64,000 nt of DNA from assembly GCA_951406725.2 (NCBI GenBank), contig OX597827.1, positions 48,484,001 through 48,548,000 of the forward strand. The letters run 5' to 3'. Position numbers and translations under genes: made by a program. The DNA comes from Octopus vulgaris (Eukaryota). Below are positions 29,180 through 62,591 of this stretch, in pieces. The notes beneath the pieces are model-generated. The model ran no database searches. It saw nothing but the letters and a program-made list of their open reading frames with translations, and had not been told where the DNA came from. Within the stretch, counting starts at the first letter, position 1; each line of letters begins with the position of its first letter.

Positions 29180-29392
29180 TAACGGGAAGCTTTATGAAAA
29201 TAAACAAAAGACGAAGGCAGGTGGAATACAAACAAACAATTGTATTAGTATGGCGCTCAGGAATATAAATAAAACAAGTCCTTTACGTTTCGAGCCTACG
29301 CTCTTCAAAAGAAAGATACACAGAAAAGAAACACGGAGAGAAACAAGGAGAGAAAAAAAATGCGTGCAGAAGCTGGTGAATCAACATGGCGA
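29180..29392 (-). mobile_element. Short HHR-like element (GAGC/GCTC family) in (TA)n
   Basis: Minus: CGCCATG...CTTTTGAA GAGC gtag GCTC GAAA CG TA AAGG...CTTCGTCTTTTG...TTCCCG then (TA)n; homologous to 38363, 61622 and 62324. Confidence 0.75.
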
Positions 29393-30881
29393 TCTATATA
29401 TATATATATACATACATACACATAAGGGCAGCGAGCAGGCGGAATGTTTACCAGGTTTATAAAGTTCTCTTTCATGCAGAGTGTTTAACAAAAAGAAATC
29501 ACTACCATCATTCTAATAAAAAAAAAATACGTTGCGATGCTGTGGAGACAGATGATCATTATCATTACACTTTGACAAAAGTTCTTCTTTAATAAAGTGT
29601 ACATAATACATTATTATTAACGTTTTACCGTACAAAGTTTCCATAATGGGAACAAATTTTAAAATTGCATTACAAATGTACTTATAATCAATAGTCGAAT
29701 TAGACTGCTTAATTACGTTTATTTCTGCACCACTTAATATCTACTGAAGTTACACCAATCATGTTTAATGATTCTTTCATGTAAACCAGCAATAAATTTG
29801 ATGAAAATGTCATATAAGAGCAAAGTAATTTTTGAAGGTCATACTTTTTTATATGATACTTTTTTTCTACATTTAGCTATTCTTCAGATATGAATATAAT
29901 ACACTTATCACATAAAACTAAAGTACTACCAATTCTGTAGTTTATGTAGTATTTACAGTAGTTTATATAAAGAGTTAGCATACTCTGGCACCTAAAATTG
30001 CTTCTAGACTATACGACGTGTGTAACACATTTTGTTTTTCTCAAACCGCTTCTGCTTTAGTTTATTGCGACTGTGATGTGTTTAATCTTGTTGAAACCTG
30101 TATCTCACGGCAGTAATTATAGAAACTTGTGCATAGCTACACTCAGCGTATCTGTTCTCTTCTTATTCTGCTAAAAAAAACTGCATAAATCACGCAGTGG
30201 GCAGTACCATAGAATGTTCCATTATTTTAGCTTCTATTTTGTGTATCTTTTAATTATTTTCATTTTAGTAAGGATGCATTTTTAGTGTAATAAAAAAACA
30301 TTAATCACATAAATATAAACATATAATAGAAAATACATATTCTTAAGTTAATCTCCGTATTCTATTCATTATGTTGTGATATACTCATCAAAATACAATT
30401 GATTTCAATGTGGTTTAATTTTACTATTATCAGGCTAACGTTCCTATTTTGGGAACATGGTAAAAAACTAGGAAACTTATATTTTTCGTGCAAATTTGAT
30501 ACATAAAACTAATATTGAATGGGAAACAAGCGATGTAGTCAAATATTACGATTGTCCTATCATTGCAACTATAAGCCGTCTCTAAAGACTTGTAATTTTG
30601 CTTTGTAGCTGAAGGGTTCTAATGTTACATGTTGCAATATTTATCGTTTTAACTCCTATTTATATGCAGATGTTGCTTTCATCATCATTATTTGTTTTTT
30701 AATAGGGTTGTATTTTTTCTGTTCGTAGAGGATGTCTTGTTGTTGCCTTATGTATTCCCCGGCTGCAAATATTGCCATATATTTAGAAAACAAACTAAAA
30801 CAGTATCAAATAGGAACGACATCTTCCTTCTCTCTCTTTTTTATTTACTTTTGTTGGCAGTGTTTGAAAATGAAATGTAAT

Positions 30882-31045
30882 AATCTTTTCTACTAGAGAG
30901 ACAAAGCCTCTGAAATTTGGTACTAATTTTATCGACAGCCAACGATGAAAAGTAAAATCGAATCGGCAGAATTTAAACTCGGAATGTAAAGATAGATGAA
31001 AATTCGCTAAGCATTTTAACGGTGTATTAACGATTCTGCCAGCAC
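30882..31045 (-). mobile_element. SINE family A, diverged
   Basis: TAATTTTATCGAC...GATGAAA...GCTAAGCATTTT...TAACGATTCTGCCAGC. Confidence 0.75.
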
Positions 31046-31924
31046 TTCCTGGGACATTTAAAAAAATAAAAAGCAATAATGAGTTGCAAATTCAGATTTG
31101 GAATGAAAATATATCTTGTGTATCTTATACAGGTTTCTTATCGCTTATCGTTGAATTAGCGAATTGATAGCCACTCCGAATTAACATTCAGAAGTGGTTA
31201 AAACTCTCACAGATAATTCGATTGAGTTCCCGACATAACTTTGCTTCTTATCATCTTTTAAGTATATACAACTGAAAGTTATTTAGCATTCTTCATATAT
31301 TTTATGTATTTGGTAACATATTGATGTTTTAGAGTCATAAAAGGGGGGTATTACGAAAGAAATTAAAGATTCTAAACGTATTTTCCATGTGTCTCAAGTT
31401 GATCTACACTACACTCGCTACAGTTGTCTTATGTAAGCCTTACTCAACCCTGATCGGGAAGACCTTGTCTATGAGATATAGAAATTCTATGAAAACATTA
31501 TCCAGTGTAGAATAATGTTGTAAAGTGGGGTAGAGTTTGGTAGATATTTTTCTTACATGTTTCTATGTATGTCGGCATATCTTCTATAGTATGTACACAC
31601 ATAGACACAAATATATACCTTAACTGTAATGATATATGAATGACCCAAAAACCAAGTACTTCTTGTCCTACATTAATGAGATGAAGTTGTCAGTTGAACA
31701 ATCCAGCACACAAAACCATCAGGGTTTTAAGACATCATTGATTAGTTTTACGGTTAAAAATAGAGAGTATCGCCTACTTTTGCATATTCAGGTCCGCCTT
31801 CCATGTTTAGTTTACTCCATTAAAGTTATATTTACGTGTTTATATATGTGTGTGTATAACTGTATCAACCAGATTATATGGTGTTGTTATACACCATTGT
31901 TCATGGTGCCCTTCCTCGTATTGG

Positions 31925-32118
31925 AATAATGACACTCTACTGGCTGGGTAAGTAGGCTAACGTAATTCTCGCACGATTGCCTAGTTACAACTGAATGGGC
32001 TGAACTAAAGTGAAATTGGGTGTTTTGCTCAAGAGAACAAAGCCACGCCGATCTAGGATTCGAAACCACGATCTTGCAATTATGTATGCGGTACCTTGCA
32101 CACTAGTCCACGTGCCTC
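31925..32118 (-). mobile_element. SINE family C-related, diverged
   Basis: TAACGTAATTCTC...TTTTGCTCAAGAGAAC...GGATTCGAAACCACGATCTTG; tRNA-like head on -. Confidence 0.55.
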
Positions 32119-32254
32119 AATACGAACACACACACACACACACACACACACACACACACACACACACACACACACACACACACACATGTATGCGCATGTA
32201 ACAAAAATATCAAAATGTTAGATAGTTCAAATACTTTTATATAAATGATAAACG

Positions 32255-32672
32255 TACTCTTTACTCTTTACTCTTTTACTTGTTTCAGTCATTTGACTGC
32301 GGCCATGCTGGAGCACTGCCTTTAGTCGAGCAACTCGACCCCGAGACTTATTCTTTGTAAGCCCAGTATTTATACTATCGGTCTCTTTTGCCGAACCGCT
32401 AAGTAACGGGGACGTAAACACACCAGCATCGGTTGTCAAGCAATGCTAGGGGAACAAACACAGACACACAAACACACACACATACATATACATATATATA
32501 CATATATACGGCAGGCTTCTTTCAGTTTCCGTCTACCAAATCCACTCACAAGGCATTGGTCGGCCCGGGGCTATAGCAGAAGACACTTGCCCAAGATGCC
32601 ACGCAGTAGGACTGAACCCGGAACCATGTGGTTGGTAAGCAAGCTACTTACCACACAGCCACTCCTGCGCCT
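32255..32672 (-). mobile_element. Full-length SINE family B
   Basis: Reverse complement of the 25144 copy, low divergence. Confidence 0.95.
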
Positions 32673-60672: not shown

Positions 60673-61621
60673 TTATATATGTGCGTATATATATATATAT
60701 ATATATATACGCACATATATGTATATGCTTGCATGTATGCATATAAATTCAAACATAAACTTACACATAAACACAAATACATATAAGTGAGGTCTATATA
60801 GACCTCCATATATAGATTTACCGCTGGTGCAACGCCTAATGAACAGTTTGTTACCTTTATACACAATTCTGTCTGCGATTATTTGTCTTATAAAACAACA
60901 CTCCTAATTAATTTTTTTTTCATCTCACCTCCGAGAAGACGTGACAGGTTTGGAGTGTGATGTAATTCCGGATTTGAAGACTTCCTGATTACGTGCTCGA
61001 CGTATCTTCAGTTCTAAATGAAATAATTTCCACGGCGTGACTAAGTATGTTTACGCGCACGTAAAGTCATTATGTCAATTGATGACTGTTGAAATGGAAT
61101 TTGTATGCTGTATATTATTTGTGCTTTAAATGTACATCAGTCTAGATCGGGCCGTAATGTCGTTAAAAATATACCAGACTGACAAGCTAATTGCGTCGTG
61201 TTTTTTAGGAGTAGTGAAACTGTATAGAAGCTATGTTATGTGGCCTCCGTATGAGGTCTAAGAGGTTTCGGCACCATACAATGCATTTCAGAATACGTCA
61301 AGGCCCTCCGCGCGCTGCTTTGAAGGCCAAACAGTGTGAAATTAAACATTTACAACCTCGAGGTTGATAAACTACAGTTCAATTGTTTGGAGAACAATGC
61401 CTGAATTAAGACCTAGAAAGGTATTAACTCTGATAGTTTCCAATGCCTCAAATCACGTGATATGTCACCTAATGGAGAACAAACATACATACATACATAC
61501 ATGTGTATGAATGTATATGTTTATATGATTATATATATATATATATATATATATCTTTATATATATATGTATGCATGTATGTATACATATGTATACGTAT
61601 TTATATGTGTGTGTGTGTATA

Positions 61622-61837
61622 CTTGGAATTTACCCAAAAAAAACCAAAAAGGTGAAGACAGGTGTATTAATATAATATAAGGTGTATAATATAACAATCA
61701 GGTGTATTAATATAACGCTCGGGATGGTGATAAAGTCCTTTACGTTTCGAGCCTACACTTTTCAACAGAAAGGAACACGAAAACATATACAGAGAGAGAA
61801 TAAGAAGAGCTTAGTGGGAAGCGGTCGATCATGGCGA
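61622..61837 (-). mobile_element. Short HHR-like element (GAGC/GCTC family)
   Basis: Minus: CGCCATGAT...CCTTT CTGTTGAA AAGT gtag GCTC GAAA CG TA AAGG...CCCGAGCGTTATA. Confidence 0.7.
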
Positions 61838-62001
61838 TATATATATGTGTGTATGTGTGCCTGTGTGTGTGTATGTATGCATATATATATATTTATAAAT
61901 ATACATATATATATATATATATATATATATATATATATATATATATATATATATATATATATATATATATATATATATGTATGTATATCGGGAGAAAAGT
62001 G

Positions 62002-62107
62002 ATTTATACATCCAGGTTTTATTATACGGTTAATCACATCTTTCTTTGTCAATACCTACGCAAAGAAAGATGTGATTATCTGTATAACAAAACCTTGGTG
62101 TGAAAAT
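62002..62107. other. Long hairpin (~45-bp stem, 12-nt loop)
   Basis: Perfect 18-bp TAATCACATCTTTCTTTG / CAAAGAAAGATGTGATTA, extended by AGGTTTTATTATACGG / CTGTATAACAAAACCT. Confidence 0.85.
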
Positions 62108-62323
62108 CTCTGTCCTTCTGATATTTATTATTTTTTCTTTTATTCTCTACGGACACTATGCAGTCTTTGTAAGGACATCTTGATTTACCAAAGTGAAGAT
62201 TAAGCGATTATAGTAATTTTAACTAACTGGAGTGCATCAATATTCACTGAGATTAACCAGTATTGTTAACCGATAAGAGCGAGCACTGCACCCTCGAGGA
62301 TTATACTTCCTTCTTAACCATTC

Positions 62324-62591
62324 GCCATGATAGATCGCTAGCCACTAATCATTCTTTATTTTCTCTCCTTCTTTCTTTCTGTGTTCCTTTATGAGGAAGA
62401 ACGTTGGCTCGAAACGTTAAAGACTTTTTCTCTTCTCGAGCGTTATACTAATACATCTGCCTGTTGCCTACACCAACTGTCTTCGTCTTTTGTTTCATTT
62501 TGCGAATATGTATCTCCCCTTGTTTTTTCTGAGTCCTTTTCTGTAGAAGAGCGTAGGCTCGAAAAGTAAAAGACTTTTTCTATTCCGAGCG
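62324..62591 (+). mobile_element. Tandem (150-bp period) short HHR-like elements (GAGC/GCTC family)
   Basis: GCTCGAAA at 62407 and 62557, each followed by AAAGACTTTTTCT...CGAGCG. Confidence 0.75.

What the first reader, a model, noticed from the sequence alone, without database searches (positions are those of the whole stretch)
29180..62591. Abundant ~150-220-bp family with a non-canonical hammerhead core (CUGUWGAA)
Seen: copies at 29180(-), 38363(+), 61622(-) and a 150-bp tandem at 62324(+) share the approximate consensus CTTT-CTGT(A/T)GAA-GAGC gtag GCTC-GAAA-CG-TA-AAAG, start at CGCCATG and mostly sit in TA tracts. Three copies have U at the normally invariant A6 position, plus an extra A before stem II and a 2-nt stem III. 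Diverged relatives at 28866 (CCGATGAA) and 19373 (CTGACGAT GAGC aat GCTG GAAA) keep A6. Inference: either a natural core variant that still cleaves, or a catalytically dead hammerhead kept as an RT recognition structure while the family continued to amplify.
Basis: partly seen in the sequence, partly recalled or inferred. Interest (0 to 1): 0.7.

Follow-up and report, generated by a model that had tools for sequence, protein, structure and literature searches.

The report
Active Penelope element with altered hammerhead
These short repeats are cut-off tail ends of a recently spreading, protein-coding jumping gene whose hammerhead RNA motif has U in place of a normally fixed core A in nearly all copies while the rest of the motif has been kept unchanged, so it is likely a slowed, protein-assisted self-cutting RNA, though cutting is untested.

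Summary
The window's copies are not a stand-alone short family. They are 5'-truncated 3' ends of a 4.5-kb autonomous Penelope-like element (RT, CX4CxxC linker, GIY-YIG; Neptune/Nematis type) that inserts in (TA)n. U6 is fixed: 17,808 exact matches have U, 234 A, 503 C/G. The youngest subfamily has at least 2,752 U against 1 A, and 29 of 29 young long-ORF copies carry CUGUUGAA. The extra A and missing helix III are published features of Penelope minimal hammerheads; only U6 is unusual. Across seven subfamily consensuses, 34 of 36 motif positions never changed (ORF dS about 0.34); only N7 and N17, the positions free in hammerheads, did. So the fold is under selection, but U6 itself is not shown to be. 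No genomic trace of cleavage was found: no excess of ends at the cut site, no U6-snRNA chimera (the A6 sister family has one). Best reading: slowed, protein-assisted ribozyme (0.5); rival: dead fold kept for the element's protein (0.35). The scan noted this family before on other DNA (e1-9953875, e1-9500873). New variant of a known kind.

The parts
29172..29395 (-). 5'-truncated 3' end of the element (recent TT/CG subfamily), between TA tracts; hammerhead at 29280-29315 with U6 and a decayed G5
   Evidence: 92% to the full-length unit over 226 bp
38360..38548 (+). 5'-truncated 3' end (AG subfamily), between TA tracts; hammerhead 38413-38448, core CTGTAGAA
61621..61837 (-). 5'-truncated 3' end (old TT group); hammerhead 61737-61772, core CTGTTGAA, G10.1 decayed
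62322..62501 (+). 5'-truncated 3' end (GG subfamily); decayed hammerhead 62387-62422, the one window copy with A6
62510..62591 (+). AG-subfamily piece next to the GG copy; hammerhead 62537-62572, core CTGTAGAA; 3' tail lost at a duplication breakpoint
28790..28916 (+). decayed copy of the sister family (A6 kept, U4C, stem II GAGC-TCC-GCTC); hammerhead about 28862-28896
19369..19404 (+). old, decayed hammerhead relative with A6 (CTGACGAT); family not assigned
   Evidence: not picked up by the family profiles

Best explanation
The repeats are 5'-truncated 3' ends of a recently amplifying, autonomous Penelope-like retrotransposon whose terminal repeat carries a minimal type I hammerhead with A6 fixed as U, and this motif likely still acts as a slow ribozyme that would need a second copy and the element's own protein to cut. 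Shown: the full unit is about 4.5 kb, encodes RT-CX4CxxC-GIY-YIG, usually sits as a partial tandem with two identical U6 hammerheads, and ends in a TTATATAT stretch that matches the (TA)n target. Inferred: the endonuclease nicks (TA)n and primes reverse transcription about 100 nt downstream of the hammerhead. Most copies stop early, which leaves the 150-220-bp stubs. The two motifs of one transcript would pair through the ACGU palindrome to form helix III, and rare cleavage after N17, followed by ligation, would give the continuous (circular) template behind the partial tandems. A slower core would leave more 3' ends uncut for priming, which could explain why U6 was tolerated.
For: Element anatomy: RVT_1 E=1.3e-7 and a weak GIY-YIG hit below the Pfam cut-off; DKG, CSRPRCRTC and YIGQT motifs; 102 of 103 scored matches have no stop, open frames up to 1,214 aa; median 0.31% substitutions to L139 over 28 copies; upstream repeat in 14 of 16 full-length loci, two hammerheads in 13; internal junction the same in 14 of 14 apart from two single-base changes. 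U6 fixed: 17,808 of 18,545 matches; 29 of 29 young loci with a hammerhead; at least 2,752 U against 15 non-U (10 C, 4 G, 1 A) in the youngest subfamily. Selection with a ribozyme-like pattern: 0 changes at 34 of 36 motif positions across 7 subfamily consensuses, 4 changes at N7 and 3 at N17 (A or U, never G); ORF dS 0.339, dN 0.044; Poisson P about 1e-5 for zero changes. Papers: a natural A6C hammerhead cleaves slowly but detectably (PMC3088659 section 8); the anole Penelope hammerhead cuts only with its protein (PMC11167929); minimal hammerheads cut as dimers at low rate (PMC4209133).
Against: No cleavage assay exists. In a pairwise-mutant scan all single and double changes in CUGA other than the C3-G8 swap gave low activity (PMC9901934 section 7; A6U not given separately in the text). 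In vitro, catalytic mutants did not reduce insertion by the anole element, and no reads ended at its cut site. Here, 5' ends at the predicted cut are not enriched: 19 junctions (16 independent) per 5,130 anchors, against about 29 at a TA 12 nt upstream. The A6 sister gives the same rate, 10 of 3,201, so this test does not separate them. U6-snRNA chimeras at the cut site: 0 for this family, 1 for the A6 sister. Stem II and loop II are also frozen, more than catalysis should need. One unchanged site is expected by chance (P about 0.6-0.7), so U6 is not shown to be selected. A continuous template could also be a read-through transcript with no cutting.
Confidence: 0.5

Rival explanations
1. The motif lost catalysis when A6 became U. 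It has been kept since as a folded RNA handle that the element's protein binds to set the start of reverse transcription, and the lineage amplifies without any self-cleavage.
For: CUGA mutants are weak and not rescued. Hammerhead catalysis is dispensable for insertion in vitro, and the minimal template region overlaps the hammerhead (PMC11167929). Stem II and the GUAG loop are invariant, with no compensatory change inside the lineage. No cut-site chimera or end enrichment. Naiad elements thrive without canonical hammerheads (PMC8557442 passages).
Against: The only positions that changed are N7 and N17, and N17 stayed A or U in all consensuses (G17 only sporadic: 32 matches). The dimer palindrome ACGU is intact. 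The cut-site tests also give almost nothing for the A6 sister, so they have little power.
Confidence: 0.35
2. The 36-nt stretch is constrained at DNA level, as part of the terminal-repeat promoter or the endonuclease recognition site, and the RNA fold no longer matters.
For: Sequence, not just pairing, is frozen inside the lineage. Penelope terminal repeats hold promoters (review PMC6765202 passage).
Against: Between families the sequence changes while pairing is kept: stem I C-G to G-C; stem II GGAC/GTCC in an older family against GAGC/GCTC. The free positions match the RNA fold.
Confidence: 0.08
3. U6 is an actively selected change (compensated by an unknown contact), and the motif is a fully competent variant ribozyme.
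For: U6 lasted through the whole subfamily series, and the lineage is abundant and young.
Against: No compensating core change is visible, published scans found no rescue of CUGA mutants, and single-site constancy is not significant.
Confidence: 0.07

Closest known systems
Minimal type I hammerheads (min-HHR) of metazoan Penelope-like elements (Cervera and De la Pena 2014, PMC4209133; main text parts 1-2 of 4 and supplement file 2 part 2 of 3 read, file 2 also searched; file 1 not searchable)
   Same: U-rich leader, 4-bp helix I, extra nucleotide between 9 and 10.1, G10.1-C11.1, GAAA-CG-UH with palindromic helix III, A or U at 17, location in the terminal repeats, mostly single truncated copies.
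   Different: U at core position 6. All 44 alignment rows seen in the supplement part have A6, and the four CUGUNGA strings occur 0 times in that file.
EN+ Penelope-like elements of the Neptune/Nematis type (Craig et al. 2021, PMC8557442; passages read)
   Same: RT then C-terminal GIY-YIG, DKG motif, CX2-5CxxC linker, partial tandems, microsatellite targeting, hammerhead near the 3' end.
   Different: Non-canonical core in an amplifying family; long N-terminal region and about 0.9-kb C/T-rich 3' UTR. Neptune versus Nematis not resolved by a tree.
Natural A6C hammerhead of phage Bcep176 and U4C viroid variant (Perreault et al. 2011, PMC3088659; section 8 and passages read)
   Same: Natural change at a 'fixed' core position; A6C is slow (<0.1/min) but active.
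   Different: Those are single full-length ribozymes. This is A6U, in a minimal motif, in about 18,000 exact copies, with activity untested.
Poseidon element of the green anole (Frangieh et al. 2024, PMC11167929; parts 1-2 of 4 read)
   Same: Hammerhead in the terminal repeat, AT-rich targets, reverse transcription starting about 100 nt downstream of the motif (inferred here from the fixed 3' end).
   Different: There the core is canonical and overlaps the ORF start. Here the motif lies about 1.1 kb before the first ATG of the next unit, and the 3' end is complementary to the target.
Animal non-LTR retrozymes (10.64898/2026.07.22.740005; part 1 of 5 and passages read)
   Same: Short non-coding units with a type I hammerhead, related to Penelope terminal repeats.
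   Different: These copies are truncated ends of a coding element with variable 5' ends, not tandem monomers of fixed length.

Membership tests
PLE minimal type I hammerhead | C3-U4-G5, G8-A9 and G12-A13-A14-A15.1...U16.1-H17 | tested here: met
   Invariant in 7 of 7 subfamily consensuses; H17 is A or U
PLE minimal type I hammerhead | A at position 6 (CUGANGAH) | tested here: not met
   U in 17,808 of 18,545 matches
PLE minimal type I hammerhead | Extra nucleotide between 9 and 10.1; G10.1-C11.1; palindromic 15.2-16.2 | tested here: met
   A, G-C and CG in all consensuses; listed as typical in PMC4209133
PLE minimal type I hammerhead | Helices I and II supported by covariation | tested here: inconclusive
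   None within the family. One compensatory pair in helix I against the sister (a single event); helix II GGAC/GTCC in an older A6 family
PLE minimal type I hammerhead | Self-cleavage as a dimer or with protein | not testable with these tools
   Indirect genomic tests negative or without power
EN+ Penelope-like element | One ORF with RT and C-terminal GIY-YIG | tested here: met
   RVT_1 over cut-off; GIY-YIG E=0.0065, below cut-off, with YIGQT motif
EN+ Penelope-like element | Partial tandem forming pseudo-LTRs that carry the hammerhead | tested here: met
   14 of 16 full-length loci; two hammerheads in 13
Neptune/Nematis type | CX2-5CxxC linker between RT and EN; DKG motif | tested here: met
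   CSRPRCRTC at aa 836, DKG at aa 376; definition from PMC8557442
Neptune clade proper | RT groups with reference Neptune elements | not tested
   No reference set on hand; the linker is shared with Nematis
Non-LTR retrozyme | Non-coding tandem monomers, each with a hammerhead | tested here: not met
   Copies run upstream into an ORF; the window's tandem is two subfamilies

The most novel reading that the evidence does not exclude
A natural experiment on an open question: an autonomous Penelope-like element lost hammerhead catalysis early, then went through several subfamily waves up to a recent burst of thousands of near-identical copies while purifying selection froze the fold. The Penelope hammerhead would then be first a protein-binding signal for reverse transcription, a ribozyme turned into an RNP handle, with self-cleavage optional.
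Probability: 0.35. Interest if true: 0.75.

Novelty: new variant of a known kind. Interest (0 to 1): 0.5.

Why it matters
Why Penelope-like elements keep hammerheads is unresolved: the motifs cut poorly, and catalytic mutants still insert in vitro. This family gives a direct test, because an intact ORF, its natural U6 motif and a closely related A6 sister are all in one genome. If the motif cuts, A6 is not required when a protein or dimer helps, and descriptor searches that demand CUGANGA miss very large families. If it does not, a frozen but dead ribozyme shows that the fold, not the chemistry, is what the element needs.

Tried and rejected
Local decay as the source of U6: rejected. A young A6 master: not found. 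The 20 A6 copies fetched out of 234 fall in several subfamilies next to U6 copies, five of them in one old clade that also holds U6 copies (tree of 92 family copies, weak support at many nodes). Alternative register with U as an insertion: rejected, because the sister and the older family align without a gap at this position. Rfam: no hammerhead among the 150 best of 345 matches listed; the top hits are miRNA models on TA/CA repeats. Pfam on two broken frames of L065 gave nothing. Energy folding of the monomer and dimer gave a competing non-hammerhead hairpin and is uninformative. Expression: no RNA holder listed. Contigs of four coded organisms were laid; they cover the core and list no other letter at position 6, but the table also omits an expected N7 variant, so it is not used as evidence. 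Copies ending at the cut site: 35 matches, 30 inspected by eye, showing internal deletions or TA junctions and no recognised foreign RNA. U6 snRNA copies: 48 scored, none joined to this family. Fisher tests used 17 and 20 junctions; a recount gives 16 and 19, which does not change the result. Flank change rate (71 changes in 124 columns) is inflated by pyrimidine-tract alignment, so dS was used as the neutral yardstick. Print searches: 'hammerhead'+'A6U'+'cleavage' listed only a twister paper; the search with 'CUGUNGA' showed 0 occurrences in the 9 papers listed; octopus+Penelope searches gave nothing on this motif in the listings. Lünse, Weinberg and Breaker 2017 (PMC5785218), the paper most likely to list core variants of Penelope hammerheads, is not held and was seen only as a reference entry, so the novelty of A6U in print is not settled. 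The supplements of PMC9901934 were listed but not read, and bioRxiv supplements are closed.
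Full report
Observation. The five copies lie where stated, four of them between TA-rich tracts. Their cores read CTTTTGAA, CTGTAGAA, CTGTTGAA, ATGAGGAA and CTGTAGAA, so four have U at hammerhead position 6. The window is G000:C14:48484001-48548000 in a 2.8-Gb animal genome. Earlier scan notes call it likely an octopus, which matches my own recalled impression of the repeat landscape; I did not test this. A 29-nt exact motif has 8,845 matches and the reversed control 0.

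Is U6 fixed? With position 6 set in turn, the pattern CYG-x-NGAAGAGCGTAGGCTCGAAAC gave 17,808 U, 234 A and 503 C or G (11 of the first 100 C/G matches listed are G). Among 38 copies found by profile or by the endonuclease, not by the core, 36 have U, 1 C and 1 A. In the youngest subfamily a 53-nt exact string with U6 has 2,752 matches, and a shorter pattern with any other letter has 15, one of them A. The 20 A6 copies I fetched scatter over the subfamilies as sporadic changes would, though five sit in one old mixed clade.

What the family is. One A6 locus carried RT and GIY-YIG remnants upstream. Searching with that region, and then with a 405-aa open frame, gave 103 scored matches out of about 19,000 candidates, 102 without a stop and with open frames up to 1,214 aa. 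The ORF has RVT_1, a weak GIY-YIG hit, the DKG motif and a CX4CxxC linker, which is the Neptune/Nematis layout as defined in PMC8557442 (passages). Of 30 loci fetched, 29 carry the hammerhead, all as CTGTTGAA; the thirtieth is the truncated query. They differ from L139 by a median 0.31% in the ORF (28 copies). Of 16 full-length loci, 14 have an upstream partial repeat, and 13 have two U6 hammerheads about 4.5 kb apart (two of the loci, on small contigs, share a start and may be duplicates). The join between the repeat and the next unit is the same in 14 of 14 apart from two single-base changes, and contains TTATATAT, the sequence at which genomic 3' ends run into (TA)n. The window holds only 3' stubs and no ORF piece.

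What is and is not unusual. The extra A, the G10.1-C11.1 pair, the CG palindrome in place of helix III and A or U at position 17 are all part of the published consensus for Penelope minimal hammerheads (PMC4209133, parts 1-2 and supplement file 2 part 2). Only U6 departs from it. It is likely derived: a sister family of 13,538 matches has A6 in 98 of the first 100 listed, mostly with U4C, and an older family with stem II starting GGA has A6 in 39 of 44 matches by my count of the 96 listed. Pairing is kept between families: stem I C-G to G-C, stem II GGAC/GTCC against GAGC/GCTC. Within the family the stems do not vary.

Selection. Of 169 family copies, 107 fell in seven clusters of three or more; the rest, mostly old, were left out. 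The tree suggests a ladder from old TT through CG, GG and AG to the young TT form, with uneven support. Over the seven consensuses, 34 of 36 motif positions never change, N7 changes four times and N17 three times. The ORF of the GG stage (majority of 11 copies, 414 synonymous sites) differs from the young ORF by dS 0.339 and dN 0.044, so about 11 changes were expected and none seen (P about 1e-5). The motif therefore stayed under purifying selection after U6 arose. U6 itself is one site, and its constancy is not significant (P 0.6-0.7). The excess of change at N7 and N17 is a post hoc observation.

Does it cut? I looked for fossil traces, following leads from earlier scan notes (e1-8799442, e1-8797406). 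Copies starting at the predicted cut number 19 (16 independent; 40 of the 59 matches were indel or deletion variants of intact copies) against 5,130 anchors, and about 29 of 33 matches start at a TA 12 nt upstream (the control's denominator was not measured). The A6 sister gives 10 of 3,201. There is no enrichment in either family, and TA microhomology at the cut confounds the test. One full-length U6 snRNA is joined to the sister's 3' piece at its predicted cut (L356; TT microhomology makes a template switch possible), and none to this family. One against zero is weak. No RNA run on record was available.

Mechanism. Papers pull both ways. A natural A6C hammerhead cleaves at under 0.1 per minute (PMC3088659), and the anole Penelope hammerhead cuts only with its protein (PMC11167929); both allow a slow, assisted U6 ribozyme. 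But CUGA mutants are weak and unrescued in a pairwise scan (PMC9901934), and catalytic mutants still insert in vitro. The pattern of change, only at N7 and N17 with N17 never G and the dimer palindrome intact, fits kept catalysis slightly better. The frozen loop fits protein recognition. I put slow assisted cleavage at 0.5, dead fold at 0.35, DNA-level constraint at 0.08 and a fully competent variant at 0.07.

Verdict. The element is a member of a known kind. The motif works like a Penelope minimal hammerhead but fails the A6 criterion, so it is filed as a variant. I found no A6U hammerhead in the searches named, but the most relevant paper (PMC5785218) was not available. The scan noted the same family on other DNA (e1-9953875, e1-9500873); I reached the reading before looking and checked it here. 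Interest 0.5: a real, well-supported core change in an amplifying autonomous element that makes the role of Penelope hammerheads directly testable, but no cleavage result yet.

Noticed in passing
L356 (G000:C24:3769673-3772694), about 1420-1640: Full-length U6 snRNA joined to the 3' piece of the A6/U4C sister family at its predicted hammerhead cut site.
   Followed up: partly
window 28790-28916; genome-wide: Sister family of at least 13,538 copies carries a different core change, U4C, in most copies.
   Followed up: partly
L076 around 1420-1640: Chimeric copy: sister-family sequence upstream of the core, this family's stem II and tail downstream, with A6.
   Followed up: no
L384, L387, L388, L392 and others: Older, diverged minimal-hammerhead family with canonical CUGAUGAA and stem II GGAC/GTCC.
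   Followed up: partly
subfamily consensuses: N7 and N17 changed 7 times along the lineage, more than the ORF's synonymous rate suggests; possibly escape from small-RNA silencing at the only free positions (speculation).
   Followed up: no
window 57289-64000: Local duplications: 60144-61339 with 62830-64000 (94%), 57504-58300 with 58711-59501 (84%), 57289-57503 with 62586-62815 (90%).
   Followed up: partly
window 18905-19260, 25094-25615, 28171-28611, 32238-32685, 50850-51326, 56589-57019; and 1-212, 982-1214, 22324-22555, 47994-48226, 52363-52589: Two other abundant SINE-like repeat families, about 420 and 230 bp.
   Followed up: no
window about 16230-16670, minus strand: 148-aa frame that looks like a mariner-type transposase remnant (label recalled, not tested).
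   Followed up: no
window 7300-7421: Near-perfect palindrome around TA/CA repeats that scores against miRNA models below their cut-offs.
   Followed up: no
L315-L319 (G000:C1:139.42 Mb) and L307-L354: Tandem cluster of U6 snRNA genes; most other U6 copies scored are fused to the tails of other repeats.
   Followed up: no
L175 3919-4517; L165 185-489: Stubs of this family stacked head to tail (three CG copies with TA spacers; a GG copy followed by an AG copy), showing repeated insertion at earlier copies' TA tails.
   Followed up: no
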